Shown here piece by piece: positions 12,323 to 60,262 of a stretch of DNA of 64,000 nucleotides (the first letter of the stretch is position 1; each line of letters opens with the position of its first letter). Source of the DNA: Chloroflexota bacterium (GTDB lineage: Bacteria > Chloroflexota > Anaerolineae > Anaerolineales > VGOW01); contig JACRBQ010000028.1 in the NCBI GenBank assembly GCA_016213135.1, forward strand, positions 7,284 to 71,283, given 5' to 3'. Below the pieces are notes generated by a model. That model had not been told where the DNA came from. It was given only the letters and a program-made list of their open reading frames with translations, and did not search any database. Both the position numbers and the translations under genes were made by a program.

Positions 12323-12946
12323 ATGGACTCGCCTAAAATTATCAAACGCCGGTCGTTTACCGACTGGCTGCGCTTGCGGCTCAAGTGGCTCACCGAACCG
12401 GTGGGCGCATTAGTGGCCCGGTTGGGCATCCACCCCAACGTGCTCACGGTGATCGGTTTTGTGGGCAACGTGCTGGGCGCGGCCGCGTTGGCCGCCGGCC
12501 GCATCTCGCTCGGCGGCTGGATTATTCTGGCAATGGGGCCTGTCGACGGGCTGGATGGCGCGACCGCCCGCGCCAGGGGCCAGCCGTCGCCCTTCGGCGC
12601 CTTTGTGGATTCGGTGACCGACCGCTACTCCGAGGCAGTTATCTATCTCGGCCTGCTGATCTCTTTCCTCGGACAGCCGGGCGATCACTCTCAAGCGTTT
12701 GTTCTGGCCTTCGTGGCCTTCGTCGGTTCGGTGATGGTCTCGTACGTCAAAGCTCGCGCCGAAGCCCTGGGCTTCGAGTGCAACGTGGGCCTGCTCACGC
12801 GAGTGGAGCGCTATCTCATCCTCGCCCCGCTGCTCATCTTTGACTTGCCCATGGCTGCGCTGTGGATCATTGCCATACTGGCCAATGTGACGGCCCTACA
12901 GCGCATCTGGCACGTTCGCAGGCAGTGGTACGATAAAATTAGGTAA
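12323..12946 (+). CDS. CDP-alcohol phosphatidyltransferase (likely phosphatidylinositol-phosphate synthase type)
   Basis: DG(x)2AR...G(x)3D(x)3D motif in GPVDGLDGATARARGQPSPFGAFVDSVTDRYSE. Multiple TM helices. Sits directly downstream of ino1. Confidence 0.85.
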   Translation: MDSPKIIKRRSFTDWLRLRLKWLTEPVGALVARLGIHPNVLTVIGFVGNVLGAAALAAGRISLGGWIILAMGPVDGLDGATARARGQPSPFGAFVDSVTDRYSEAVIYLGLLISFLGQPGDHSQAFVLAFVAFVGSVMVSYVKARAEALGFECNVGLLTRVERYLILAPLLIFDLPMAALWIIAILANVTALQRIWHVRRQWYDKIR

Positions 12947-13017
12947 TGAACAATGAAAGAATGAACAATGAACAACGGGCGTTGCCATTGTTCATTGTTC
13001 ATTGTTCATAGTTCATT
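12946..13017. repeat. inverted pair of heptamer arrays (GAACAAT-type) forming a long hairpin
   Basis: The left arm ATGAACAATGAAAGAATGAACAATGAACAA faces the right arm TTGTTCATTGTTCATTGTTCATAGTTCATT. It lies between the CDP-alcohol gene stop and the lgt start. Confidence 0.8.
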
Positions 13018-23113: not shown

Positions 23114-24496
23114 ATGAAACTCTCCTACTCTCAAAAACTACTCTACGCCGCCGGTTCGCTTGGCGTCGCCCTTTCGTATCAAGCCTTCGGCACGTACATT
23201 CAATTCCTCTACATTGATATTCTCGGCCTCAAAGCTTCGCTGGTCGGCATCGGCTGGAGTCTGTACGGCATTTGGAATGCGGTCAACGATCCGCTGGCCG
23301 GATACTTGTCGGACAACACCCGCACTCGCTGGGGCCGGCGCATTCCATGGATTGTCAGCACGTTCATCCCCGTCGGCTTATTTTTCTACTTGCTCTGGGT
23401 TCCGCCCTCGCCGCTCATCAAAGGCGGGCAGACTCCGTTGTTCATCTACTTCATGGCCGTCGTCCTGCTCTTCGATTTGCTGTGGACGATCATCGTGATG
23501 AACTGGACGGCGCTCTTCCCCGAAATGATCCCCGACGAAAAAGAACGCGCTACCGTCTCCGGCTGGCGGCAGTTCTTTTCGCTCATCGGGCTTCTGCTCG
23601 GCGTGGCCCTGCCGCCCATCCTGGTCGGCGCGGATTGGAGCGGGCGCGGCGGTATGGCGTTGACGTTTGCCGCCATTACTTCGATCACGTTCGGCATTTC
23701 ATTATTGGGCAGTAAAGAGAATCTGGCTATTCAACACGAAAAACAGCCGCCGTTCATTCCGGCGATTAAGGCGTCACTCCAAAGCATTGCCTTCCGCTGG
23801 TTTCTGGTTGCCAACCTGCACAAAGAATTCATTTACAGCATCATGACGGCTTCGATTCCATTTTGGGCGAAATACGTGTTGAAGATTCAGGCGCCGGTCC
23901 AATTGTTCGGCGCGGAGCTGGACGCCGGGATACAGAACTCGCTTTTGCTCGGCCTGGCCTTCATTATGGCCCTGCCTGGCCTGCCCATTTGGACGGCGGT
24001 TGCCAAACGAGTCGGCGGGCGGCGCGGCTGGCAAATTTCGCAAGGCACGTTTGCGCTCTCGATGATCTTGTTGTTCCTGGCCAATGATTTCTTTCAAGGC
24101 ATCGCCGCCACGTCCATCCTCGGCCTCAGCCTGGCCGGTCTGCTCGTCTTCCCTGATCTATTGATCTCCGACGTGATCGACGAAGACGAAACGGTGACCG
24201 GCGCGCGGCGCGAAGGCATGTATTTTGGCATGAACGGATTCATCATCCGCTTTGCCTTTTCGATGCAAGGGATCACCACCGGCGTGATCCTCTACCTGAG
24301 CGGCTACGTCCACTCCACCGCCGAAGATTTGTATCCGGCCCAACCGCCGCTGGCCGTGCTAGGCATTCGCGCCATGACCGCCTTTGTGCCAATCCTTGCC
24401 TCCGCCGTCGTCATTTTTGCCCTCAGCCGCTATCCACTGCACGGCGAGCGGTTGAAAGCCTTGCGCGGCAGGGTAGCTTTATTGAGGGACAGATGA
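23114..24496 (+). CDS. GPH-family (MelB-like) glycoside/cation symporter, MFS superfamily
   Basis: YAAGSLGVALSYQAFGTYIQFLYIDILGL, NDPLAGYLSDNTRTRWGRRIPWI, about 12 TM helices. Confidence 0.87.
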   Translation: MKLSYSQKLLYAAGSLGVALSYQAFGTYIQFLYIDILGLKASLVGIGWSLYGIWNAVNDPLAGYLSDNTRTRWGRRIPWIVSTFIPVGLFFYLLWVPPSPLIKGGQTPLFIYFMAVVLLFDLLWTIIVMNWTALFPEMIPDEKERATVSGWRQFFSLIGLLLGVALPPILVGADWSGRGGMALTFAAITSITFGISLLGSKENLAIQHEKQPPFIPAIKASLQSIAFRWFLVANLHKEFIYSIMTASIPFWAKYVLKIQAPVQLFGAELDAGIQNSLLLGLAFIMALPGLPIWTAVAKRVGGRRGWQISQGTFALSMILLFLANDFFQGIAATSILGLSLAGLLVFPDLLISDVIDEDETVTGARREGMYFGMNGFIIRFAFSMQGITTGVILYLSGYVHSTAEDLYPAQPPLAVLGIRAMTAFVPILASAVVIFALSRYPLHGERLKALRGRVALLRDR

Positions 24497-24591: not shown

Positions 24592-26034
24592 GTGCATCGC
24601 CTCGAAGCCCGCGAAGGCTCTTCACAAGTCACCACCCGCTCGGTGGCTGCCGCGCTGCGCCTGCAGCACCTCGACGTGTACGAATTGCCCGCGTGGCAAA
24701 AGGCGGGCCTCACGCTGCTCAACTCTTTCCCCGCCGCGCTCATCCGCGTCATCGAACTCAACTACTCCGTCTCGGGCCTCGACCATGCCCTTGCCCGCAC
24801 CGTCCGCACCGCCGACCTGGTTCGGGAGTCGTTGGCGCATTACGAAGGGTTGGAGGGGCCATTCGAGGCCGTGGTCATCGGCGCGGCGGGGCAGGGGGCC
24901 GCGCATCTCGCCGTCGCGCTGGGCGCGCCCTTCCTCCCGCAACCGTTCGTCCTCGGCTTTCGCGGCGGCGGCTCCAAAGCCGACGACGCCCGCGCCGCCC
25001 AGCGCAGCGGGCAGGCCCTCTCCGAACTCATCCTCGCCAACAACCCGGACGTGTGCATCGTCAATCACTTCGACCCGATTCACGACGGCCGGTTCACGCC
25101 GTACATCACCCATGCCCGGCTCAAGCTCATCGAACTGCACGAGGAGTACGCCGCCTTCGTCCGCTCGCGCCTCAAGCCGGGCGGGGCGCTCGTGTTCCTC
25201 GACTGCACCGCGCCCTGGCCGCAGTTCCGCATTGGCCCGCGCCTCACGTTTCAAATCGGCGGCTGGGGCGGCATTGCCCCGAGCGAATACCTCGACGGCA
25301 GCCCGCGCATTGACGCCATGAAAGCCGCGCAAGGCTCGCCGCACCGCGGCGGCTGGCGCGTGGATTTTCCGCTGGAGCAGCAGCCGGAGTCGGAGTGGGG
25401 CACGGCCCCCGGCCTGCGCGAGTCGGTGCGCGCCTTTGCCGAGCGCGAGGGCTATCGGTTCGTCCCGGTCACAGCGGTTGAGCCGGAGCAATTGGGCGAA
25501 CTGGCATTCCTTGCCCACGCGCGTCTCTACGAAAAAGAAGGCCGCGAGCCGGCGGGCACGCTGGTTGAAATGTTCACTCGCACCGACCCCGCCGCCGCCC
25601 GCCTCGCCGCGCTGCTGCCGTGCTGGATCATTTGGAACACTACCGAGTCCCTGGCCTTCCTCCAGCGGATGCTTCCGCGCTTCCCGCAAAACAAGCCCAT
25701 CCTTTTCACCCCGCTGGCAAACTTTGTCGTCACCCCGGACCTCGTGCCGTGGGCGCAATGGGCCGCCACTTTCGCCGGTCGCCAGTGGCAAGCCCTCGGC
25801 TGGAATCCCGACCGCTGGCCCTCGGATGCGCCCGCCATGTGGCGGCCCACCGAAGCACTGGCGCGCTACTGCGAGGCTCACCCCAACCCCATGCGCGCCA
25901 CCCTTACCATAGATGAACTGGTTGACTGCACGAAGCAAATCAACATCCCCTCGCCCGACGGAGCCTCCCCAACGAAGCCGCCAAGCGGTGAAGTCGAGGA
26001 ACGCAGCCGCCGCCCGCGCTATTGCGAAGGGTGA
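24592..26034 (+). CDS. hypothetical protein (no family recognised)
   Basis: Of three overlapping long ORFs, only this frame has balanced composition (W, F, Y, E, D, K present). The other two are R/P/S/A-rich or G/R/A/V-rich off-frame artefacts. GTG start, uncertain. Confidence 0.55.
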   Translation: MHRLEAREGSSQVTTRSVAAALRLQHLDVYELPAWQKAGLTLLNSFPAALIRVIELNYSVSGLDHALARTVRTADLVRESLAHYEGLEGPFEAVVIGAAGQGAAHLAVALGAPFLPQPFVLGFRGGGSKADDARAAQRSGQALSELILANNPDVCIVNHFDPIHDGRFTPYITHARLKLIELHEEYAAFVRSRLKPGGALVFLDCTAPWPQFRIGPRLTFQIGGWGGIAPSEYLDGSPRIDAMKAAQGSPHRGGWRVDFPLEQQPESEWGTAPGLRESVRAFAEREGYRFVPVTAVEPEQLGELAFLAHARLYEKEGREPAGTLVEMFTRTDPAAARLAALLPCWIIWNTTESLAFLQRMLPRFPQNKPILFTPLANFVVTPDLVPWAQWAATFAGRQWQALGWNPDRWPSDAPAMWRPTEALARYCEAHPNPMRATLTIDELVDCTKQINIPSPDGASPTKPPSGEVEERSRRPRYCEG

Positions 26035-26108
26035 TTCGGAGATTGCCTTCAATGCTACAATACGGGTAGCTGCTCAGGCCTTCCGCATTGGCGCATCATC
26101 GAGAACAG

Positions 26109-26156
26109 CGGATCATCCGAATTGAGCGGATCGATCCGTTAAATTCGGCGAATCCG
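26109..26156. repeat. intergenic hairpin element (CGGATCATCCGAAT ... ATTCGGCGAATCCG)
   Basis: Imperfect inverted arms around the GGATCGATCC palindrome. Confidence 0.5.
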
Positions 26157-26177
26157 TAGTTCTTTAGTGATTGGGCT

Positions 26178-28565
26178 GTGCAGTTACAAAACCCCTTCGT
26201 GACCCCCACACCCCCACACCCCCACACCCCCACACTCACACATCGCGACCTCGCCGCGCTCGCCCTCCTCTTCCTCGCCGCCTTCGCCTTCTGCTGGCCC
26301 ATCTTCGCCCCCGGCTGGATCATCCCGCAGGGCGGCGGCGACCTCGTCTCCTTCCTCTGGCCTACCTACCGCTACGCCGCGCGCGTGCTTCATAGTCAAC
26401 CTTGCGCCTCTTTCTCCACAATGTTCAATCCGCAATCTGCAATCTGCAATCTGCAATCTGCATATTCCGCCCTCCTCTGGAACCCCACCCTCTACTCCGG
26501 CGCGCCCTTCGCCGCCGATAACCAGACCGGACTCTTCTACCCCCCGAACCTCGTTGCGTTTCTCCTCTTTCCCGACCTGCCCTACGCCGCCCTCGAAACC
26601 CTCGTCGCCCTGCACCTCTTCCTCGCCGGGGTCGGCGCCTACCTCTTCGTGCGTTTGGAGTTTCCGGCGAGAGATTCGAAGTTGGAAGTTGGAAATTTGA
26701 AATTTGAAGTTGGAAGTTGGAAGTTTGAAGCTGGCCTCGTCTCCGCCCTTGCCTTCATGGCCTCCGACGTATTCATCACCCACCTCGGCAACTACAACAT
26801 CGTCGCCGTCTCTGCTTACCTCCCCTTCATCTTTCTCTGTCTTCGCCGCTCCCTCTCCCATACCCCCACACCCCCATACTCGTCCGTCAAATGGTCTGTG
26901 TTAGCAGGTCTGTCCCTCGGCCTCGCCGCCCTCGCCGGCCACGCCCAGATGACCCTCATCCTCGCCTTCGCCTGCGCCCTCTACACCCTCTACCACCTCC
27001 TCACTCACATCCCGTCACTCCTCACGCCTCGCGCCTCACTGCTCACTGATCACAGGCCACTGCCCACTGGTCACCGCCCACTGCTCGCTGCCCACTGGCC
27101 CCTGCTCACTATTCCTCTCGTCGCCTTCGGCCTCGCCGCCATCGCCCTCCTGCCCGCCCTGCAAATGGTCGGCTACACCGCCCGCACCGCCCTCAGCTAC
27201 ACCGACGCCTCGCGCTGGAGCCTCCCGCCCCTCGGCCTCGCCGGAGCCGTCAGCCCGCTCGTCTTCGGGCGCGGCGCGCGCGACTTCTGGCCGACGTGGG
27301 ATCGCGTCGAATTCGGCTACATGGGCATCGTGGCCCTCAGCCTTGCCGCCCTCGCCCGCAAGCCGCGTTTCTTCATCGCCCTCGCCCTCGTCGCCCTCGT
27401 CATCGCCCTGGGCCGCTACACCCCCGTTCATCAACTCCTCTTTCAGTTCGTTCCCGGATTCGCTTCCATTCGCGTCCCGGCCCGCTTCATCCTCCTCACT
27501 AACTTTTCCCTCGCCGTCCTCGCCGGTCACTCATTGATTGAAAAACGAAACCGCCCATGGATCATCCTTGCGGCAGTGGCCCTCGCCTCGACCCTCCTCA
27601 TCCTTGCCGCCGATCTGGCCTGGGCGCATCCCCCGGCGTGGGGGGCCATCATCACCACCCTGGCCCTCATCGCCGCCACCGCCCTCCTCTACCAGCGCGC
27701 CCCGGCCCTCCTCCCGCTCTTCCTCTTCGCCGAACTCTTCACCTTTGGCGCATTCGTCGAAACCGACCGCGCCGATCCAAACGCCGGCTACACCCGTGGC
27801 CCCGCCCTCGACTACCTGCTTGCCCAACCCGGCCCCACCCGCATCGACCTTGCCACTTCGCAATGGCAGCCCGATGCCCCTGCCGTGTTCGGCCTCGAAT
27901 CGATCACCGGCATCGCCAACCCGCTCGCCCTCGCCGCCTATGACCGCTACTACTGGTCCGTGGGCTACCGTGGCTCGCCGCAATATAACTTCCTCGGCGC
28001 GCAATTCGTCGTCGCCGACAAAAACCACCCTCCCGCCGACAGCAGCTTTGTTCCCGTCTTCAACGAAGACCCTGCCGTAGACGTTTATCTCAACACCAAC
28101 GCCATGCCCCGCATCAGCCTCATCACCGACCCCGTCTTCGTCCCCGACCCGGGCTCTGCCTTCGCTGCTATCCACGACCCGGCCTTCAACCCCGCCGCCC
28201 AAGTCGTACTCGAAAGTCAGGCGTCAGCGGTCAGCGGCCAGCCATCGGCTAACACGAATCTCTTTTACACCGCGTATGCGCCCGGCCAATTCACCATCGT
28301 CGCCCAAACCCCGGCCCCGGCCTACCTCGTCCTCGCCGAAGTGTGGTACCCCGGCTGGGTCGCCACCCTCAACGGGCAACCCGCGCCCATCCTTCGCGCG
28401 GACACTGCCTTCATGGCCGTGCTCCTTCCCGCAGGCGAAAGCACCGTCGCCTTCCATTTCACCTCGCCCCTGCTCACCCTCGGCGCAATCATCACCCTCA
28501 TCACTCTCCTCGCCTCTGTGATTCTGTTGTTCATCCTTCATCCTTCATCGTTCATCCTTCCATGA
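26178..28565 (+). CDS. YfhO-family polytopic membrane glycosyltransferase-like protein carrying several in-frame oligomer arrays
   Basis: LWNPTLYSGAPFAADNQTGLFYPPNL near the N-terminus and LAEVWYPGWVATLNGQPAPILRADTAFMAVLLPAGESTVAFHF near the C-terminus, both typical of YfhO. The start is uncertain (GTG at 26178 or 26199). Confidence 0.7.
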   Translation: MQLQNPFVTPTPPHPHTPTLTHRDLAALALLFLAAFAFCWPIFAPGWIIPQGGGDLVSFLWPTYRYAARVLHSQPCASFSTMFNPQSAICNLQSAYSALLWNPTLYSGAPFAADNQTGLFYPPNLVAFLLFPDLPYAALETLVALHLFLAGVGAYLFVRLEFPARDSKLEVGNLKFEVGSWKFEAGLVSALAFMASDVFITHLGNYNIVAVSAYLPFIFLCLRRSLSHTPTPPYSSVKWSVLAGLSLGLAALAGHAQMTLILAFACALYTLYHLLTHIPSLLTPRASLLTDHRPLPTGHRPLLAAHWPLLTIPLVAFGLAAIALLPALQMVGYTARTALSYTDASRWSLPPLGLAGAVSPLVFGRGARDFWPTWDRVEFGYMGIVALSLAALARKPRFFIALALVALVIALGRYTPVHQLLFQFVPGFASIRVPARFILLTNFSLAVLAGHSLIEKRNRPWIILAAVALASTLLILAADLAWAHPPAWGAIITTLALIAATALLYQRAPALLPLFLFAELFTFGAFVETDRADPNAGYTRGPALDYLLAQPGPTRIDLATSQWQPDAPAVFGLESITGIANPLALAAYDRYYWSVGYRGSPQYNFLGAQFVVADKNHPPADSSFVPVFNEDPAVDVYLNTNAMPRISLITDPVFVPDPGSAFAAIHDPAFNPAAQVVLESQASAVSGQPSANTNLFYTAYAPGQFTIVAQTPAPAYLVLAEVWYPGWVATLNGQPAPILRADTAFMAVLLPAGESTVAFHFTSPLLTLGAIITLITLLASVILLFILHPSSFILP
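26203..26242. repeat. tandem octamer array (CCCCCACA)x4-5 inside the YfhO-like ORF
   Basis: Four perfect units plus a degenerate one, translated as TPTPPHPHTPTLTH. A related array of three units lies at 26856..26879. Confidence 0.85.
26424..26465. repeat. tandem heptamer array (TGCAATC-type, 6 units) inside the YfhO-like ORF
   Basis: TTCAATC CGCAATC TGCAATC x3 TGCATAT. 42 bp = 14 codons (FNPQSAICNLQSAY). Confidence 0.85.
26676..26731. repeat. tandem heptamer array (TGGAAGT/TTGAAAT-type, 8 units) inside the YfhO-like ORF
   Basis: TCGAAGT TGGAAGT TGGAAAT TTGAAAT TTGAAGT TGGAAGT TGGAAGT TTGAAGC, translated as SKLEVGNLKFEVGSWKFEA. Confidence 0.85.
27002..27113. repeat. tandem heptamer array (CACTGCT-type, about 16 units) inside the YfhO-like ORF
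   Basis: CACTGCT CACTGAT CACAGGC CACTGCC CACTGGT CACCGCC CACTGCT CGCTGCC CACTGGC CCCTGCT CACTATT, preceded by 5 degenerate units. This gives a 7-aa protein periodicity (LLTDHRP LPTGHRP LLAAHWP). Confidence 0.8.
28526..28560. repeat. tandem heptamer array (ATCCTTC/ATCGTTC, 5 units) at the 3' end of the YfhO-like ORF
   Basis: GTTGTTC ATCCTTC ATCCTTC ATCGTTC ATCCTTC. This is the same family, in reverse orientation, as the array at 60152..60210. Confidence 0.8.
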
Positions 28566-30466
28566 ACCGCCTCCCCGTCATTCTCATTATTTTCACCGCC
28601 GCCCTCCTGCGGCTCGGTTGGCCCGGCCTCACCGAATTCAAAGCCGACGAAGCGCGGCTGTATTCGCTGGCCCTCAGCATGGCCGAATATAAATCGTTCG
28701 CCCTGCGCGGCATCGGCTCCTCGCTCGGCCTGCCCAACTTTCCCCTTTCCGTGTGGCTGTTCTCGCTGCCGCTGTTCGTGTGGAAGCACCCCTATTCGGC
28801 CACGTTGTTTGTCGCCGCGCTGAACACGCTTGCCGTGTACGTCTGCTATCGGCTCACCCGCCGCCATTGGGGCGAGGCCGCCGCCCTCGTCGCCGCGCTG
28901 TTCTTTGCCGTCAGCCCGTGGGCTGTCATCTATTCGCGCAAAATCTGGGCCCAGGATTTGCTGCCCCTGTTTGTGTTGGCCTACATCGGCGCCGCCCTCG
29001 CCGCCTTTGTCGATAAGCGGCGTTGGGCGTTGGCTATGCATCTTGTCGCCCTTGCCTGTGTGGTGCAAATTCACCTCTCCGGGTTGGCCTTTGTCCCCCT
29101 CACTGCCCTGTGGCTGATCGTTTTCCGGCGGGATGTTCGCTGGCGCGAAGTGGCCGTGGGTGTGGCCGCCGCCGCGCTCACCGCGCTTCCTTTTGGCATT
29201 TACCTGCTGGGAAACATGGGCAATACCGCCGCCGTGGGCGGCCTCCTCGCTCGAAAAGCTTCCATCGATCCCGATTCTCTCCGTTACTCGTGGATGCTGC
29301 TCACCGGGGCAGACATTCACTCATTGGCCGGGCCGCAGGCCTTTGGCGATTTTCTGCGCTCCGTGCCGAACATTGACCCCGTCCGTTGGCTGTGGGGCGT
29401 GCTGGCCGTGGCGGGCCTCGCCGTGGCCCTTTACCGCCGCCGCCCCGCCGATCTCATTTTGGTTTCGTGGCTCGCTGCTCCGATTCTCTTTTTCATCCGC
29501 CACAGCACGCCGGTGTTCCCGCACTACTTCATCGTCACCCTTCCGGCGGGATACATGCTGGCGGGCATTGCGGTCAACGCGTTTGCAGATTTTCTTACCG
29601 CGAAGGCGCGAAGAGCGCAAAGGCAAGAAACAAATGACCCTTCGCGTACGCCTGCCCTCTTCAGAGGGTCGCGCCTTCGCGGTTCTATCTTTGCGCTGGC
29701 TATCGCGAGTGCGGCGGCGCAAGCGGGCGTGTGGCTGGCGCTGCTGTTTTTCGTGGGGCGGGTGGCCACGCCCAATGGCTTCGGCACACCGCTGGGGATG
29801 CTGCTCAACGTGGCGGATCAAGCCAAGGAGTGGCGCCTGGCGCGGGGCGCGCCGGAGATTTTGCTCGTGGGTAAAGGCGATGATCCACAGGTGGACGAGT
29901 TCGCCGCGGTGACCGACTCCCTCTTTCACGGCCTGCCGCACCGATTCGTGGACGGCGCGGCGGCGGCGGTGTTGCCGCAGGGCGGGGCGGTAGTCGTCAT
30001 CCAATCCGGCGATTTCACCGCGCGCGGCTGGTACGAAAAACTGGCCGAGAGCGCAACGTGCCTGCTCTTGCGCGAGCACGAAATAGGCATCGAGCTGCTC
30101 GCCGTTCCGCCGAGCCTCGCGCTCCAGCCCGCGCACGCTTTCGCCGAACCGAGGCTGCTCGCCAACGGCGTGGAGCTATTGGGCTGGGAGGCTGCCCCGG
30201 CGTGGACCGTGATCTGGCGCGTGGGCTACATCCCGCCCGCCGCCGACTACCACTTTTTCAACCACGCCCCCTCGGCGCAAGCGGACGGAGTGGGCTACCC
30301 CTCGCGTTACTGGCGCGATGGCGATAGGGTGCTGAGCTTTTTTGACTTGAGTCCGCTGGCGTGGCCGGTGCGGGTGGGGATGTACGAGTTTCCGTCGGTG
30401 ACGAACGTGCCAGTGTTGGATGCGATGGGCAACCCGTATTCGGACGCGGTGACGGCGGGGCCGTAA
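28562..30466 (+). CDS. GT39 / ArnT-PMT-like membrane glycosyltransferase
   Basis: MNRLPVILIIFTAALLRLGWPGLTEFKADEARLY...SPWAVIYSRKIWAQDLLPLF. The ATGA overlap joins it to the YfhO-like stop. The start was chosen at the internal ATG. Confidence 0.83.
   Translation: MNRLPVILIIFTAALLRLGWPGLTEFKADEARLYSLALSMAEYKSFALRGIGSSLGLPNFPLSVWLFSLPLFVWKHPYSATLFVAALNTLAVYVCYRLTRRHWGEAAALVAALFFAVSPWAVIYSRKIWAQDLLPLFVLAYIGAALAAFVDKRRWALAMHLVALACVVQIHLSGLAFVPLTALWLIVFRRDVRWREVAVGVAAAALTALPFGIYLLGNMGNTAAVGGLLARKASIDPDSLRYSWMLLTGADIHSLAGPQAFGDFLRSVPNIDPVRWLWGVLAVAGLAVALYRRRPADLILVSWLAAPILFFIRHSTPVFPHYFIVTLPAGYMLAGIAVNAFADFLTAKARRAQRQETNDPSRTPALFRGSRLRGSIFALAIASAAAQAGVWLALLFFVGRVATPNGFGTPLGMLLNVADQAKEWRLARGAPEILLVGKGDDPQVDEFAAVTDSLFHGLPHRFVDGAAAAVLPQGGAVVVIQSGDFTARGWYEKLAESATCLLLREHEIGIELLAVPPSLALQPAHAFAEPRLLANGVELLGWEAAPAWTVIWRVGYIPPAADYHFFNHAPSAQADGVGYPSRYWRDGDRVLSFFDLSPLAWPVRVGMYEFPSVTNVPVLDAMGNPYSDAVTAGP
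29597..29683. repeat. 87-bp family-A-like hairpin element inserted in frame in the GT39 gene
   Basis: Arms ACCGCGAAGGCGCG / CGCGCCTTCGCGGT. It starts on a codon boundary and its length is 29 codons, translated as TAKARRAQRQETNDPSRTPALFRGSRLRG. Confidence 0.75.
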
Positions 30467-38723: not shown

Positions 38724-39725
38724 CTACAAATTGCCCAACACCCCCTCCAACACCTTGACGGCCGCCGCGACCGTTTTCCCTGCCTTATCCAGAGTCGGGT
38801 CGACCGCCGAAAGCGTAACGGCCATCAGCCGTTTGTTGGCGATCAGATCGCGACAAATGCGAATTGCCTCGTCACTGCTCAAGCCGCCCGGCGCGGGGTA
38901 GTTCACACCGGGCGCTTCTTTCAAGTCCAGCACGTCAATATCGAAGTGAAGATAAAACGTCTGCACGTTGCTCAAGGCTTTCGCGGCCAGTGAGTGATCG
39001 CGCCGCGCTCCTTCGGCGTCCAACACGGTGAGCTGCGTCGTTTTCATCAGCGCCGCTTCCGGCGGGTCAAGGTCGCGCGCGCCGACCAACGCGCAGTTTT
39101 GAGTCCGCGCGGGCTTGGCGAGCCTGGCGGCCTGGCGCAGCGGCGCGTTGCCGTAACCGCAAATTGTCGCGTACGGCATCCCGCCGATGTATCCGGAGAG
39201 AGACGTCTCTTCGGTGTTCCAGTCGCCGTGCGCGTCGAACCAAACCACGCCGGTCTTCTGCGGGTCTCGCGTGCGTGTGATCCCGCTCCACACGCCAATG
39301 GCGTTGCAACAGTCGCCGCCGAGAATGACCGGCAGAAGTTTGTGGTCGAGCGCCTCGGCCACTGCTTCCGCGACGTGCTCCTGCAACCGCCCCAGCCGTT
39401 CCAGCATAGTGCCCTCGCCCAGGTCTGTCCTGAGCGCAGCCGAAGGGCCTGCCCCGGCCGTAGCTGAAGGGCTTGTCCTGAGCGTAGCCGAAGGACTTGT
39501 CCTGAGCGTAGCCGAAGGACTTGTCCTGAGCGCAGCCGAAGGACTTGTCCTGAGCGTAGTCGAAGGATCGTCAGTCATTCTTTGCGTATACGCGATCGTC
39601 AAACCGAGGGATGCCAACCGATCCGGCAGTCCGGCGGCGAACAGCGCGTCCGGCGCTTGCCCCGTGCCGACCAAATGCCGGTCCTGGCTGAATGGAACAG
39701 AGATGAGGGCGATTTCTTTTGGCAT
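38724..39725 (-). CDS. arginase/agmatinase/formiminoglutamase-family ureohydrolase with a 48-aa in-frame repeat insert
   Basis: Metal-binding motifs VVWFDAHGDWN, LVGARDLDPPE, LHFDIDVLD. The insert runs from aa 53 to aa 100. Confidence 0.83.
   Translation of the reverse strand: MPKEIALISVPFSQDRHLVGTGQAPDALFAAGLPDRLASLGLTIAYTQRMTDDPSTTLRTSPSAALRTSPSATLRTSPSATLRTSPSATAGAGPSAALRTDLGEGTMLERLGRLQEHVAEAVAEALDHKLLPVILGGDCCNAIGVWSGITRTRDPQKTGVVWFDAHGDWNTEETSLSGYIGGMPYATICGYGNAPLRQAARLAKPARTQNCALVGARDLDPPEAALMKTTQLTVLDAEGARRDHSLAAKALSNVQTFYLHFDIDVLDLKEAPGVNYPAPGGLSSDEAIRICRDLIANKRLMAVTLSAVDPTLDKAGKTVAAAVKVLEGVLGNL
39426..39569. repeat. six tandem 24-bp units (TGTCCTGAGCGTAGCCGAAGGACT) in frame in the ureohydrolase gene
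   Basis: Four near-perfect and two degenerate units. Each contains the palindrome GTCCT...AGGAC. Translation is (SPSATLRT)n. Confidence 0.9.
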
Positions 39726-45653: not shown

Positions 45654-46568
45654 TCAGGAGCGTGCCGATCCCACGACTCTTTTTTCGGCGGGCGTCATGC
45701 GGGCGCGGAGGAGTTTGTAGCGGCGCACGGTTTCGATGGCGGTGTAGACGAGCCAGTTGAATGGCGCGGGATAGCGGGCGGCGAAGTGCTTGCGGTGAAA
45801 GAGTTGCATGGCATCGTAGAAGGCGTTGATCATGCGCTCCGGTTGCTTGCGGGTGGACGTGCCCTTGAGATGCTTGACGGTGACTTCGGGCCAGTAGACG
45901 ACGCGATAGCCGCGCTTTTTGATTCGCAGGTTGAGGTCGAGGTCTTCGCCGTACATGAAAAAGGATTCGTCCATAAGGCCCGCTTTGACGAGAGCCTCGC
46001 CGCGCATGAGCATGCACGCACCGACGACGGAGTCCACGTCGGCGGTTTGGCGCTCGGGCAGGAAGGTCATGTTGTAGCGGGCGAAGGCGGGGCTGTGTGG
46101 AAAGAGTTTGGCGAGGCCGAAGATGTAATAGAACGATGTGACGGGGGTCGGCTCGCCCCGGCGGCAGGCGAGGTCGAGCGAGCCGTCGGCCAGTTCGAGG
46201 CGCGGGCCGAGCACGCCGATGTCGGGGTGCGAGTCGAGGTGGGCCACCATGCGGCGCAGGGCGTCGGGCGGGGTTTCGGTGTCGGGGTTGAGCAGCATGG
46301 CGTGGCGGTAGCGCGGGGCATCGGGGAAGCCCGCCGCCTTCAGACCGAGGTTGTTGCCGAAGGAGTAACCGCCGTTGGTGCGCGAGTCGATGACTTTGCA
46401 CCAGCCGAACTGCCGGCGCACGAAGTCGGCGGCGCCGTCCGTGCCGCCGTTGTCCACCACGAACACATCGGCCTCCAGCCCTTCCAGCGCGGCGCGCAGG
46501 GCGCCGAGGCACGGGGGGAGGAATTCTTTGGAATTGTGCGAGACGATGACGATGGCGAGGGTATTCAT
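45654..46568 (-). CDS. GT2 family glycosyltransferase
   Basis: LAIVIVSHNSKEFL...VVDNGGTDGAADF...GGYSFGNNLG...YGEDLDLNLRIKKRGYRV. Confidence 0.88.
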   Translation of the reverse strand: MNTLAIVIVSHNSKEFLPPCLGALRAALEGLEADVFVVDNGGTDGAADFVRRQFGWCKVIDSRTNGGYSFGNNLGLKAAGFPDAPRYRHAMLLNPDTETPPDALRRMVAHLDSHPDIGVLGPRLELADGSLDLACRRGEPTPVTSFYYIFGLAKLFPHSPAFARYNMTFLPERQTADVDSVVGACMLMRGEALVKAGLMDESFFMYGEDLDLNLRIKKRGYRVVYWPEVTVKHLKGTSTRKQPERMINAFYDAMQLFHRKHFAARYPAPFNWLVYTAIETVRRYKLLRARMTPAEKRVVGSARS

Positions 46569-46595
46569 GATTACAGGAGTCAGGAGTCAGATGGC

Positions 46596-46728
46596 GGAGG
46601 TCGGAGGTCGGAGGTCGGAGGTCGGAGGTCGGAGGTCGGAGGTCGGAGGTCGGAGGTCGGAGGTCGGAGGTCGGAGGTCGGAGGTCGGAGGTCGGAGGTC
46701 GGAGGTCGGAGGTCGGAGGTCGGAGGTC
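46596..46728. repeat. perfect tandem array (GGAGGTC)x19
   Basis: 133 bp with no deviation from the 7-nt period. Flanked by (CAGGAGT)x2.4 at 46574-46590 and two copies of the 14-mer CATTCCGACTCCTG at 46731-46758. Confidence 0.97.
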
Positions 46729-46762
46729 GACATTCCGACTCCTGCATTCCGACTCCTGAATA

Positions 46763-47737
46763 CTATGCTTTTAGTATCTCCCAATAGCTCCCCAGCCGCC
46801 GCTGGAGTTTCGCGTCGTCGATTTTGCCGGTGAGGCGGCCTTTGAGGGTGCGGGCCAGCCAAAAAAGCAGGCCCACCACGGTAATGGCTTTGAGCGCGGC
46901 GTACGGCAGCAGCCCGTAGTTCTTGCGATAAAAGTACGACTGGCTGCGGTAGAACTGCGCCGAGAATCTCTCCGGGTCTTTGGAGGTGCTGTGCGCGCCG
47001 AGGTGGGTGATGGTGGCCTCGGGAGTGTAGAGTAGCTTCCACCCGGCGCGGCGGGCGCGGTAGCACCAGTCGGTCTCCTCAAAATAGATGCCGAACTTTT
47101 CGTCCATCCCCGGCAGTTGCTCGTAGAGCGCGCGGCGAAAGAGCAGCGTAGCGCCCAGGATGTGTTCCACCTCGCGCACGCGGCGGTAGTCGTCGGGCAG
47201 GTAACGCCCGTTTTGCGGCGAGTCCACCGGTGTGAGCATTTCGAAGAAACCGTAGAACGCCGTTTGCAGGCTGGGGAAGCGGAAGGTGTTGTGTTGCAGT
47301 GTGCCGTCGGGGTTGACGACGTGCGGCGCGATCATGCCCGCCTTGGGATGCTGGTTGGCAAAGGCTGCCAGCCGCGCCAGCGCGCCGGGGTGAACGACGG
47401 TGTCCGGGTTGAGCATGAAGATGAGGGGCGCGGTCGCTTGCCTGAACCCGAAGTTGTTGCCCCCGGCGAATAGCAGATTGCCGTGCCCCGCAAACAGCCG
47501 CACCCACGGGAACTCGCGGGCGATGATCTCCGGCGTGCCGTCTGTGGAGCCGTTGTCCACGACGATGGTCTCAACTTCAGACGGTGGACGAAAGACGAGG
47601 GTGGGTAGCTGGTCGTTGGTCGCGGGTTGTTGGTCGCCGGGCTGGCCGCTCCAGCCGCCGGGGATGGAGGCAAGGCAATCGCGGATGACAGTGGCCGAGT
47701 TATAGGTGACGATGACGATGGACAGGGCGGGAGGCAT
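46763..47737 (-). CDS. GT2 family glycosyltransferase with a low-complexity insert
   Basis: LSIVIVTYNSATVI...VVDNGSTDGTPEI...NNFGFRQA...FEETDWCYRARRAGWKL. The insert GGWSGQPGDQQPATNDQLP overlaps a TTGGTCG-type heptamer run at 47609-47636. Confidence 0.85.
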   Translation of the reverse strand: MPPALSIVIVTYNSATVIRDCLASIPGGWSGQPGDQQPATNDQLPTLVFRPPSEVETIVVDNGSTDGTPEIIAREFPWVRLFAGHGNLLFAGGNNFGFRQATAPLIFMLNPDTVVHPGALARLAAFANQHPKAGMIAPHVVNPDGTLQHNTFRFPSLQTAFYGFFEMLTPVDSPQNGRYLPDDYRRVREVEHILGATLLFRRALYEQLPGMDEKFGIYFEETDWCYRARRAGWKLLYTPEATITHLGAHSTSKDPERFSAQFYRSQSYFYRKNYGLLPYAALKAITVVGLLFWLARTLKGRLTGKIDDAKLQRRLGSYWEILKA

Positions 47738-60151: not shown

Positions 60152-60262
60152 GAAGGATGAACGATGAAGGATGAACGATGAAGGATGAACGATGAACGAT
60201 GAACGATGAAATCCGACCTCCGACCTCCGACCTCCGACCTCTGACCTCCGACCTCTGACCTC
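60152..60262. repeat. two abutting heptamer arrays: (GAAGGAT/GAACGAT)x8 then (CGACCTC/TGACCTC)x7
   Basis: They fill most of the trkA-mgtE spacer. The second array (60214-60262) is the reverse complement of the GGAGGTC family at 46596..46728. A GC hairpin, GCGCCCCG/CGGGGCGC, lies at 60118-60143. Confidence 0.9.

What the first reader, a model, noticed from the sequence alone, without database searches (positions are those of the whole stretch)
26178..28565. A YfhO-like glycosyltransferase ORF stays open through six separate oligomer arrays
Inside one 795-codon ORF lie six arrays:
- (CCCCCACA)x4-5 at 26203.
- (TGCAATC)x6 at 26424.
- (TGGAAGT)x8 at 26676.
- (CCCCCAYA)x3 at 26856.
- About 16 CACTGCT-type heptamers at 27002.
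- (ATCCTTC)x5 at 28526.
Units of 7-8 nt are not multiples of 3, yet the frame is preserved across all of them. That implies selection on net length, or insertions confined to loops. Gain or loss of a single unit would shift the frame, so the arrays could act as built-in contingency switches for a surface-glycosylation enzyme.
Basis: partly seen in the sequence, partly recalled or inferred. Interest (0 to 1): 0.6.

Follow-up and report, generated by a model that had tools for sequence, protein, structure and literature searches.

The report
In-frame heptamer repeats in glycosyltransferase loops
An intact membrane sugar-transferase gene of an uncultured Anaerolineae (Chloroflexota) bacterium is read straight through seven short runs of 7- or 8-base DNA repeats; each run forms a floppy loop or tail of the protein, and I found no sign that the runs work as on/off switches.

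Summary
The ORF (26178-28565; likely start GTG 26199, 788 aa) carries the six reported 7-8 nt arrays plus a seventh at 28223. Codon-shuffled copies of the gene give 0.13 such arrays on average.

The gene is a functional YfhO-family GT-C glycosyltransferase:
- The AF2 model has pLDDT 89, and its best fold matches are AftD and ArnT.
- Core dN/dS is 0.14-0.24.

Every array coincides with a low-confidence loop or tail of the model. By the positive-inside rule, five of the seven face the cytoplasm.

The arrays are a local case of a genome-wide feature: 508 period-7 arrays with 120 different units. In-frame arrays are about 3.5-fold enriched in polytopic membrane proteins, mostly GT-C-like.

Orthologues across Anaerolineae carry arrays in the same loops but with other units. 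Close relatives differ inside arrays by 7-codon (21-nt) steps.

The switch reading finds no support:
- A strain 98.9% identical over 18 kb has identical copy numbers in all seven arrays.
- None of the roughly 90 orthologous loci checked is frameshifted.

"Loop-confined, length-selected insertions" is therefore supported and "contingency switch" is not. This scan has noted the same phenomenon before in GT-C genes of other genomes.

The parts
26199..28565 (+). YfhO-family GT-C fold membrane glycosyltransferase gene (788 aa; the frame is open from 26178)
   Evidence: Pfam PF09586, 37.7 bits against a cut-off of 28.5. There are 481 homologues, and most of the 120 listed carry a precomputed PF09586 hit. 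AF2 model pLDDT 89.1, pTM 0.91. Foldseek top hits: AftD 1e-9, ArnT 1e-7, then STT3, EmbB and PglB. Core dN/dS 0.14-0.24 against three orthologues.
26331..26342 (+). GGGD motif (residues 45-48) in the first extracytoplasmic loop; candidate catalytic Asp
   Evidence: G45, G46, G47 and D48 are nearly invariant in 109 homologues. The loop has net negative charge, consistent with facing outside. A catalytic role is inferred from the GT-C architecture, not tested.
26202..26242 (+). Array 1: (ACCCCCAC)x4.2, perfect, starting 3 nt after the start codon; encodes TPTPPHPHTPTLTH (residues 2-15), the cytoplasmic N-terminal tail
   Evidence: It is present in degenerate form in L001 and L003 and absent in L002 and L085. 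Copy number is identical in the 99.5%-identical strain.
26415..26462 (+). Array 2: (CAATCTG)x5.3; residues 73-88, inside extracytoplasmic loop 1
   Evidence: pLDDT is below 50 at residues 69-86. The segment, 15 codons in all, is absent in L001, L002 and L085 and present in L003.
26674..26734 (+). Array 3: (GAAGTTG)x8.1; residues 159-179, cytoplasmic loop between TM2 and TM3
   Evidence: L002 and L085 are shorter by exactly 7 codons. Orthologues carry TTGGAAG, TTGGAGA, TTGGGAT or TTGGCAT arrays in the same register. GC3 is 0.30 against 0.83 for the rest of the gene.
26857..26876 (+). Array 4: (CCCACACC)x2.5, the same unit family as array 1; residues 220-226, cytoplasmic turn between TM4 and TM5
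   Evidence: L001, L002 and L003 carry 7-nt arrays (TTCACGT, TCACGAG) at the same position.
27015..27110 (+). Array 5: degenerate (TCACGCC)x3.6 plus (CTCACTG)x10.9; residues 273-304, cytoplasmic loop between TM6 and TM7
   Evidence: L001 is 7 codons longer and L002 and L085 are 14 codons shorter. This loop averages 4 residues in 109 homologues. It is the richest array hot spot among orthologues.
28223..28242 (+).
   Evidence: L003 has a 120-nt 8-mer array at the same place (x15, CCCGACTA), and 15 further orthologues have arrays there.
28530..28560 (+). Array 6: (TTCATCC)x4.4; residues 778-788, cytoplasmic C-terminal tail. It abuts the ATGA stop/start overlap with the next gene (28562-28565).
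   Evidence: The unit belongs to the commonest family in the genome (AAGGATG, 41 arrays). Strain L098 and L001 carry a 27-nt palindromic insert inside this array.
28562..30466 (+). Downstream, translationally coupled PMT_2-like GT-C gene
   Evidence: Pfam PMT_2 at 24.5 bits, below the cut-off. Synteny is conserved in L001-L003 and L100.
24592..26034 (+). Upstream conserved 480-aa gene with no family hit; it belongs to the same conserved gene cluster, together with the MFS_2 transporter at 23114-24496

Best explanation
The gene is a working YfhO-family GT-C glycosyltransferase. The seven 7-8 nt arrays inside it are the coding-region share of a genome-wide, class-wide population of short non-triplet tandem repeats (heptanucleotide SSR / STRR-like).

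Such arrays arise and turn over by slipped-strand gain and loss of units, and possibly by insertion of junction-type repeat elements. Inside a gene they persist only under three conditions:
- the unit has no stop codon in any of its three phases;
- the net added length is a multiple of 3, so surviving changes come in steps of three units (21 or 24 nt, 7 or 8 codons);
- the site is a structurally permissive loop or tail.

Polytopic GT-C enzymes offer many short cytoplasmic turns and tails of this kind, so they accumulate arrays. The arrays are translated as 7-residue-periodic, poorly codon-adapted, near-neutrally evolving filler peptide. Single-unit changes must occur and would kill the gene, but they are purged rather than used.

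Shown here: loop location, 21-nt steps, recurrence at the same loops, purifying selection on the core, and stability between near-identical strains. Inferred: slippage as the mechanism, actual translation, and the absence of function.
For: - Genome-wide context: 508 period-7 arrays with 120 canonical units; unit GC 44% against 62.5% for the genome.
- Arrays are depleted inside coding frames (20% read-through against 47% for random control positions) and enriched at gene junctions (30% against 12.5%).
- In-frame arrays are enriched in proteins with >=8 TM helices: 25 of 74 against 9.6% of coding length, p = 1e-8. Seven of the 12 ORFs with most arrays give matches to GT-C-type families (PMT_2/PMT, PTPS_related, TMEM260-like and this YfhO gene; two of the matches fall below Pfam's cut-off), and an eighth is a polytopic membrane protein with no family hit.
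- Every 10-residue block with mean pLDDT below 70 in a pLDDT-89 model overlaps an array.
- Loops A4 and A5 average about 4 residues and loop A3 about 12 in 109 homologues.
- Indels inside arrays are 7 or 14 codons.
- Among 85 orthologous loci, period-7/8 arrays cluster in the same loops, with none in the conserved cores, and the units differ.
- In loop A3, orthologues of 60% identity or more keep a TTGG core in register while the other three bases change and are homogenised. This is concerted evolution of an inherited array.
- Core dN/dS is 0.14-0.24. In the array loops pN (0.20-0.37) is about 0.55-0.8 of pS (0.31-0.54).
- Array codons have a CAI-like score of 0.42 against 0.68 for the rest, and 32% rare codons against 10%.
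- No copy-number change in 7 arrays between strains with 146 SNPs over 18 kb.
- No frameshifted orthologue.
Against: - No read-level or expression data could be obtained, so rare off-variants within the population are not excluded.
- Many arrays stay internally near-perfect although orthologues have diverged. This shows ongoing slippage, so frameshift mutants must arise, and a slow mutational on/off role cannot be formally ruled out.
- Permissiveness alone does not obviously explain why GT-C genes collect these arrays far more than other proteins with flexible linkers.
- Some units (AAGGATG, ACACCCCC) belong to dispersed families. That hints at sequence preference or a spreading mechanism rather than purely local slippage.
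Confidence: 0.8

Rival explanations
1. Contingency (phase-variable) locus. Slippage by single units in one or more arrays switches the glycosyltransferase off and on at high frequency, as in neuO of E. coli K1. This would give the population heterogeneous surface glycosylation.
For: - The units are not multiples of 3 and lie inside an ORF for a surface-glycan enzyme.
- Array 1 is perfect and starts 3 nt after the start codon. The neuO VNTR starts 2 nt after its start codon (PMC3046976).
- Arrays remain internally homogeneous across diverged orthologues, so slippage is ongoing.
Against: - Tracts are short (2.5-11 units) and mostly degenerate (69-96% matches). neuO carries 2-93 perfect copies.
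- All seven arrays have identical copy numbers in a strain with 146 SNPs over 18 kb.
- Differences between relatives inside arrays are only 3 or 6 units.
- None of about 90 orthologous loci is out of frame.
- Seven independent switches in one gene would make the ON state improbable if each were hypermutable.
- Five of the seven arrays are cytoplasmic.
Confidence: 0.07
2. RPE-like origin. Some or all arrays are intergenic-type repeat elements (array-hairpin-array junction elements) that were inserted or absorbed into the coding sequence at permissive sites, rather than grown in place by slippage.
For: - The C-terminal array uses the commonest unit family in the genome (AAGGATG, 41 arrays) and sits on the gene junction.
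- In L098 and L001 that array is split by a 27-nt palindrome (CACTTGC...GCAAGTG), which gives the array-hairpin-array layout.
- Arrays 1 and 4 share the unit family ACACCCCC with 6 of the 54 octamer arrays in the genome.
- Strain L099 is identical upstream of loop A3 but carries a different array in that loop, so whole array alleles move by recombination.
Against: - The units of arrays 3, 5 and 7 are unique in the genome.
- The units of loop A3 in relatives form a graded series around a TTGG core in the same register. That fits in-place descent with homogenisation better than repeated insertion.
- No target-site duplications or transposase were seen.
Confidence: 0.2
3. Selected function at the DNA, RNA or protein level. 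For example, rare-codon arrays placed after transmembrane helices could slow translation and help membrane insertion. The arrays could tune loop length. They could be binding sites for a heptamer-reading nucleic-acid-binding protein.
For: - Arrays recur at the same loops over the whole class although the units change, so the DNA repeat persists rather than the peptide.
- Array codons are markedly rare.
- Arrays lie between TM helices.
- In-frame arrays are enriched in GT-C genes.
Against: - Many orthologues have only 3-4 residue turns at these sites and lack arrays altogether.
- L002 and L085 lack arrays 1 and 2 and much of array 5, yet keep an intact gene under purifying selection.
- Poor codon adaptation follows arithmetically from reading one 7-mer in all three phases.
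- Recurrence is expected wherever insertions are tolerated.
Confidence: 0.08
4. Decaying pseudogene or assembly artefact.
For: Repeats often cause mis-assembly. The L099 contig ends about 80 nt after its loop-A3 array.
Against: - The full-length frame is collinear with homologues to the last residue.
- The nearly invariant motifs are intact.
- dN/dS is 0.14-0.24.
- The same arrays appear in independent assemblies (L098/L100, L001, L002, L085, L003, L004).
Confidence: 0.01

Closest known systems
Heptanucleotide long simple-sequence repeats of prokaryotes: LSSR5-11 of Mrazek, Guo & Shah 2007 (as summarised in PMC4679880); TAACTGA repeats of Beggiatoaceae, Cyanobacteria and Bacteroidetes (MacGregor 2015, PMC4679880); cyanobacterial STRR (from my own knowledge)
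   Same: Tandem 7-nt units at hundreds of loci per genome, mostly between genes. Whether a unit can be translated depends on which orientation contains stop codons. Translation of stop-free units gives a 7-residue periodic peptide.
   Different: This genome has 120 different units rather than one favoured heptamer. At least a fifth of the arrays are read in frame. A single gene carries seven of them, all in loops, and the loop positions are shared across a whole class. According to PMC4679880, Mrazek et al. found that units in multiples of 3 are the ones most likely to lie in coding regions.
neuO O-acetyltransferase of E. coli K1 (CUS-3 prophage): a 5' heptanucleotide VNTR that causes phase variation (PMC3046976)
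   Same: A 7-nt unit inside the ORF of a surface-glycan-modifying enzyme. Only copy numbers that keep the frame give full-length protein. Three units are translated as one heptad. The peptide is dispensable for activity. Array 1 here, like the neuO VNTR, begins right after the start codon.
   Different: neuO has one long perfect tract (2-93 copies) that varies between isolates, with +/-1 unit as the commonest event. Here there are seven short, mostly degenerate tracts. They show no variation between strains 98.9% identical, only 3- or 6-unit differences between species, and no off alleles.
Rickettsia palindromic elements inserted in frame into protein genes (Ogata et al. 2000; from my own knowledge)
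   Same: Repetitive DNA of the intergenic type is tolerated inside ORFs, where it encodes a surface loop that does not disturb the fold.
   Different: RPEs are mobile palindromic elements of 100-150 bp with one consensus sequence. The features here are tandem 7-8 nt arrays with many units that change by whole-unit steps.
B. subtilis YfhO / L. monocytogenes Lmo1079 (PF09586), GT-C fold enzymes needed for teichoic-acid glycosylation (PMC5836110)
   Same: The same Pfam family. A similar architecture: about 13 TM helices, a large extracytoplasmic domain before the last TM helix, and a predicted GT-C fold.
   Different: Only the C-terminal 49 residues match the Pfam model directly. The acceptor in Chloroflexota is unknown. 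No csbB-like GT-A partner gene was seen next to it; the neighbours are an MFS_2 transporter, an unknown 480-aa protein and a second GT-C-like gene.

Membership tests
YfhO family (PF09586), GT-C fold glycosyltransferases | Sequence match to the family model above the curated cut-off | tested here: met
   PF09586 at 37.7 bits against a cut-off of 28.5, but only residues 725-773 are matched. Most of the 120 listed homologues carry a precomputed PF09586 hit. There is no NCBIfam hit.
YfhO family (PF09586), GT-C fold glycosyltransferases | GT-C fold: 8-13 TM helices with long extracytoplasmic loops or a domain | tested here: met
   AF2 model with pLDDT 89.1 and pTM 0.91. Foldseek against the PDB: AftD 1.2e-9, ArnT 1.1e-7, then STT3/OST, EmbB, PglB, Pmt1-2 and AftB. 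A profile search of PDB sequences found nothing.
YfhO family (PF09586), GT-C fold glycosyltransferases | Conserved acidic residue in the first extracytoplasmic loop | tested here: met
   The GGGD motif (D48) is nearly invariant in 109 homologues. The loop has net negative charge, consistent with facing outside. The catalytic role itself was not tested.
YfhO family (PF09586), GT-C fold glycosyltransferases | Transfer of a sugar from a polyprenyl-phosphate donor to an extracytoplasmic acceptor | not testable with these tools
   This needs biochemistry or genetics.
SSR-mediated contingency (phase-variable) gene, neuO/pglE type | Repeat with a unit not divisible by 3 inside the ORF, so that single-unit slippage shifts the frame | tested here: met
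   Seven arrays of 7- or 8-nt units lie inside the ORF.
SSR-mediated contingency (phase-variable) gene, neuO/pglE type | A long uninterrupted tract, longer than genome composition predicts and long enough to be hypermutable | tested here: inconclusive
   The tracts far exceed chance. However, they are short (2.5-11 units) and 69-96% matched; only array 1 is perfect, at 4.2 units. No hypermutability threshold is known for this organism.
SSR-mediated contingency (phase-variable) gene, neuO/pglE type | Copy number differs between closely related strains or within a population | tested here: not met
   None of the 7 arrays differs between the window and strain L098/L100 (98.9% identity over 18 kb).
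SSR-mediated contingency (phase-variable) gene, neuO/pglE type | Out-of-frame (OFF) alleles occur in nature | tested here: not met
   All 84 loci in the tblastn frame check gave a single frame except L081, whose break is a run of Ns. L085-L087, L098 and L100 are also intact.
Heptanucleotide SSR / STRR-type genome-wide repeats | Many dispersed tandem arrays of 7-nt units, mostly non-coding | tested here: met
   508 period-7 arrays with 120 units. Arrays are depleted in read-through coding frames and enriched at gene junctions.
Heptanucleotide SSR / STRR-type genome-wide repeats | Change by gain or loss of whole units | tested here: met
   Differences inside arrays of loops A3 and A5 between relatives are 21 or 42 nt.

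The most novel reading that the evidence does not exclude
The recurrence of non-triplet (7-8 nt) arrays at the same cytoplasmic loops of GT-C glycosyltransferases is not mere tolerance. On this reading selection maintains the DNA repeat itself, not the peptide. The arrays recur across a whole bacterial class and, according to unchecked notes of this scan, in several phyla. Their units keep changing while each array stays internally homogeneous. The selected role could be a slow, reversible mutational on/off or dosage device for a large paralogous family of surface-glycan enzymes. Alternatively it could be a translational pause element that helps membrane insertion.
Probability: 0.1. Interest if true: 0.75.

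Novelty: new variant of a known kind. Interest (0 to 1): 0.42.

Why it matters
The finding shows how a genome loaded with non-triplet microsatellites accommodates them inside working genes. Three filters are at work: stop-free units, changes in steps of three units, and placement in permissive loops. The result is a 7-residue-periodic filler peptide.

For annotators, low-complexity peptides such as LEVGSWK, FILHPSS or SLFIVHC in Anaerolineae membrane enzymes are translated DNA repeats, not motifs. AlphaFold's low-confidence segments in these proteins map onto them one to one.

For evolutionary biology, the gene family offers a natural series of inherited arrays under concerted evolution within a reading-frame constraint. 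It also poses a clean test of whether such tracts are a liability that is purged or a slow switch.

For the contingency-locus field, this is a counter-example. A non-triplet repeat inside a surface-glycosylation gene is not sufficient evidence of phase variation.

Tried and rejected
- A strain-level, genome-wide calibration of intergenic against coding arrays failed. The L098 genome is not held. Three exact-protein look-ups next to the 19-copy array at 46595 found nothing; two of them used wrong minus-strand coordinates, which was my error, and the third had correct coordinates but still found nothing.
- The single apparent frameshifted orthologue, L081, turned out to be a scaffold gap of Ns.
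- TRF array lengths modulo 3, and rounded copy numbers modulo 3, do not separate coding from non-coding arrays because TRF boundaries are fuzzy. I relied on comparative indels instead.
- My first crude gene caller missed genes that overlap at their 5' ends. I replaced it with a local flank-frame classifier, which is conservative: only 47% of random positions score as 'read-through'.
- The first AF2 model, built from 19 sequences, was poor (pLDDT 64.6). I redid it with 109 sequences.
- No inverted-repeat pairing between arrays was found inside the gene, so there is no hairpin reading for the internal arrays.
- A profile search of PDB sequences found nothing.
- Literature searches for heptanucleotide repeats in Chloroflexi, for STRR, and for in-frame heptanucleotide repeats returned nothing specific.
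Full report
**Observation**

The window holds an ORF at 26178..28565 (+), 795 codons. Tandem Repeats Finder reports the following arrays inside it (sequence read directly):
- (ACCCCCAC)x4.2 at 26202-26235, perfect.
- (CAATCTG)x5.3 at 26426-26462.
- (GAAGTTG)x8.1 at 26678-26734.
- (CCCACACC)x2.5 at 26857-26876.
- Two overlapping degenerate arrays at 27015-27110, (TCACGCC)x3.6 and (CTCACTG)x10.9.
- (TTCATCC)x4.4 at 28530-28560.

In 300 codon-shuffled versions of the gene, the mean number of period-7/8 arrays was 0.13 and none scored 50 or more. The real gene has 8 rows, five of them scoring 50 or more.

The likely start is the GTG at 26199, giving 788 aa. That is the length of the called protein P0001, and orthologues begin there; L003 has an ATG at the same place.

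**What the gene is**

- Pfam gives YfhO (PF09586) above its cut-off, though only for the C-terminal 49 residues.
- The database search finds 481 homologues. All named ones come from Chloroflexota (Anaerolineae, Anaerolineales), and most of the 120 listed carry PF09586.
- An AlphaFold2 model built on 109 homologues reaches pLDDT 89.1 and pTM 0.91.
- Its best structural matches are the GT-C enzymes AftD (E = 1e-9) and ArnT (1e-7), followed by STT3, EmbB, PglB, Pmt1-2 and AftB.
- A GGGD motif after the first TM helix is nearly invariant.
- Core dN/dS against three orthologues is 0.14-0.24.

The gene is therefore an intact enzyme gene under purifying selection, not a pseudogene. B. subtilis YfhO is the family's characterised member; it is needed for GlcNAc decoration of lipoteichoic acid and is predicted to be a GT-C enzyme acting outside the cell (PMC5836110). 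The acceptor in this organism is unknown.

**Where the arrays lie in the protein**

In 788-residue numbering the arrays cover residues 2-15, 73-88, 159-179, 220-226, 273-304, 675-682 and 778-788. In the model, every 10-residue block with mean pLDDT below 70 falls in or on an array: blocks 1-10, 71-90, 151-170, 281-290 and 781-788. All arrays lie in coil between helices or in the two tails.

Charge counts over 109 homologues give a consistent N-in topology:

| Segment | Net charge | Side |
|---|---|---|
| N-tail | +1.5 | cytoplasm |
| Loop 1 | -0.9 | outside |
| Loop A3 | +0.6 | cytoplasm |
| Loop A4 | +0.6 | cytoplasm |
| Loop A5 | +0.4 | cytoplasm |
| C-terminal domain | -11.7 | outside |
| C-tail | +3.1 | cytoplasm |

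Five arrays therefore face the cytoplasm (1, 3, 4, 5 and 6) and two face outside (2 and 7). In typical homologues loops A4 and A5 are turns of about 4 residues and loop A3 is about 12 residues. The arrays are thus insertions into short turns.

**Genome context**

The window lies in a 3.84-Mb, 62.5% GC MAG.
- TRF finds 508 period-7 arrays with 120 distinct canonical units. Median copy number is 4.6 and unit GC is 44%.
- A flank-frame classifier shows arrays depleted inside continuous coding frames (20% against 47% for random positions). They are enriched between two coding regions (30% against 12.5%).
- Of 74 period-7 arrays read through in frame, 25 lie in ORFs with 8 or more predicted TM helices. 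Such ORFs make up 9.6% of coding length (p = 1e-8; arrays in one ORF are not independent; by ORF the count is 14 of 51).
- Of the 12 ORFs with most arrays, seven match GT-C-type families (PMT_2/PMT, PTPS_related, TMEM260-like and this YfhO gene; two of the matches are below Pfam's cut-off). One more is a polytopic membrane protein with no family hit.

This gene is therefore the most array-rich example I saw of a class tendency, not a singular device.

**Comparative evidence**

I obtained DNA for close relatives: L098/L100 (99.5% identical in the gene), L099 (partial), L001, L002 and L085 (84-85% aa identity), L003/L004 (67%), and L005, L006, L086 and L087 (about 60%). All complete copies are intact ORFs.

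Codon alignments show that length differences inside arrays are 7 or 14 codons:
- Loop A3: window 31 residues, L002 and L085 24.
- Loop A5: window 47, L001 54, L002 and L085 33.

Other differences are also in frame: 15 codons in loop 1, and 9 and 16 codons in the C-tail.

Over 18 kb the window and L100 differ by 146 substitutions, yet all seven arrays have the same copy number. The only indel in the gene is a 27-nt palindromic insert inside the C-terminal array.

Among 84 orthologous loci, one (L081) appeared to be in two frames, but the break is a run of Ns.

**Recurrence and turnover**

TRF on 85 orthologue ORFs finds 133 period-7/8 arrays in 49 loci. Their positions pile up at the N-tail, at query residues 160-179, 220-239, 260-299, 440-520 and 660-699, and at the C-tail. 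The conserved cores have none. This holds out to Caldilinea and Litorilinea MAGs at 30-35% identity.

The units differ almost everywhere. In loop A3, orthologues of 60% identity or more carry TTGGAAG, TTGGAGA, TTGGGAT or TTGGCAT in the same register. The peptides therefore keep L, W and G from the TTGG core read in three phases, while the other positions change. Arrays stay 80-100% homogeneous internally although units differ between species. That is the signature of an inherited array under concerted evolution by continuing slippage.

In the array loops pN (0.20-0.37) is roughly 0.55-0.8 of pS (0.31-0.54), so the peptide itself is close to neutral. Array codons are poorly adapted: CAI-like score 0.42 against 0.68, 32% rare codons against 10%, and GC3 of 0.30-0.69 for six of the seven arrays against 0.83 for the rest. 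This is expected when one 7-mer is read in all three phases.

**Interpretation**

The contingency-switch idea fails the tests that could be run:
- no strain-level copy-number variation;
- no off alleles;
- short, degenerate tracts;
- mostly cytoplasmic location;
- seven independent frame-shifters in one gene, which would make the ON state rare if each were hypermutable.

The best known comparison is neuO. It has a single perfect heptanucleotide VNTR right after the start codon, with 2-93 copies. It is ON only at multiples of three, and +/-1 unit is the usual event (PMC3046976). Array 1 here has the same position but is stable.

**Origin**

Origin is unresolved between in-place slippage and absorption of junction-type repeat elements.

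For absorption:
- The C-terminal array uses the commonest unit family in the genome (AAGGATG, 41 arrays).
- It sits on the ATGA overlap with the next gene.
- In L098 and L001 it is split by a small palindrome, as intergenic elements are.

For in-place growth:
- The units of arrays 3, 5 and 7 are unique in the genome.
- The graded TTGG series points to descent in place.

Strain L099 is identical to the window upstream of loop A3 but then carries a different, L001-like array allele. Whole loop alleles therefore also move by recombination.

**Relation to the literature and to this scan**

Heptanucleotide repeats in prokaryotes are known. MacGregor 2015 (PMC4679880) summarises the LSSR survey of Mrazek et al. 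2007 and describes TAACTGA arrays; that paper also notes the stop-codon arithmetic and the 7-residue peptide of the stop-free orientation. I found no paper that describes non-triplet arrays systematically occupying loops of GT-C enzymes.

Earlier notes of this scan report the same phenomenon in GT-C genes of other genomes and in this genome. I used them as leads only. The tests reported here were run on this locus.

I rate this a new variant of a known kind, of moderate interest.

Noticed in passing
window 46574-46758: (CGGAGGT)x19.3, a perfect 135-nt array. It is flanked by (CAGGAGT)x2.4 and a 14-mer x2, and lies between two minus-strand ORFs (45654..46568 and 46763..47737). It is the longest perfect array in the window and a far better candidate for a hypermutable tract than any array in the YfhO gene. 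On the plus strand it reads as tandem GGAGG.
   Followed up: partly
window 39426-39567: A 24-nt unit x5.9 (TGTCCTGAGCGTAGCCGAAGGACT). Each unit has AGTCCT/AGGACT inverted ends, so the array could form a row of small hairpins.
   Followed up: no
window 60152-60262 and 12945-13017: Pairs of abutting heptamer arrays with different units: GAACGAT x8.4 next to TCCGACC x7.3, and AATGAAC x4.3 facing CATTGTT x4.6. The second pair is an inverted pair.
   Followed up: no
window 26102-26163: An imperfect palindrome with 34-nt arms (79% complementary) in the spacer just upstream of the YfhO gene. It is built from GCGGATC/GATCCG-like pieces and could be a terminator, operator or junction element.
   Followed up: no
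L098:3850 region (equivalent to window 28548); also L001: A 27-nt in-frame insert, CACTTGCACCAGCACGCAAGTGCGGTG (stem CACTTGC/GCAAGTG), splits the C-terminal TTCATCC array in a 99.5%-identical strain and in L001. It is absent in the window.
   Followed up: yes
L099 (GCA_016235375.1), last 160 nt: A mosaic allele. The sequence shows no difference from the window in the roughly 600 nt compared upstream of loop A3. It then switches to an L001-like sequence with a GGCATTT-type array, and the contig ends about 80 nt later. This suggests recombination at array-bearing loops, or population heterogeneity that breaks the assembly.
   Followed up: partly
window 29650-29705: In the downstream PMT_2-like gene, a 55-nt patch is completely divergent between the window and the 98.9%-identical strain, with a net 18-nt in-frame difference. 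It lies next to an 8-mer array at 29599. This is another loop replaced as a block.
   Followed up: no
G000:C126:2433-4883 (-), about 2.4 kb before the window start: A PMT-like GT-C ORF (its PMT and PMT_2 hits are below Pfam's cut-off) with four in-frame heptamer arrays in two adjacent pairs. The neighbouring ORF C126:459-2432 (PMT_2) has two more. Their peptides include SLFIVHCSLFIV, which is hydrophobic enough to look like a membrane segment.
   Followed up: partly
G000:C19:36433-36822: A YfhO-like paralogue whose match contains one in-frame TAG. This may be a broken paralogue or two adjacent genes.
   Followed up: no
genome-wide (G000): The five commonest heptamer units (AAGGATG, AACAATG, AACGATG, AATGATG, AATGACG) are one-substitution neighbours. 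On the complementary strand four of them fit CATnnTT; the fifth reads CGTCATT. This suggests sequence preference or common descent of many arrays.
   Followed up: no
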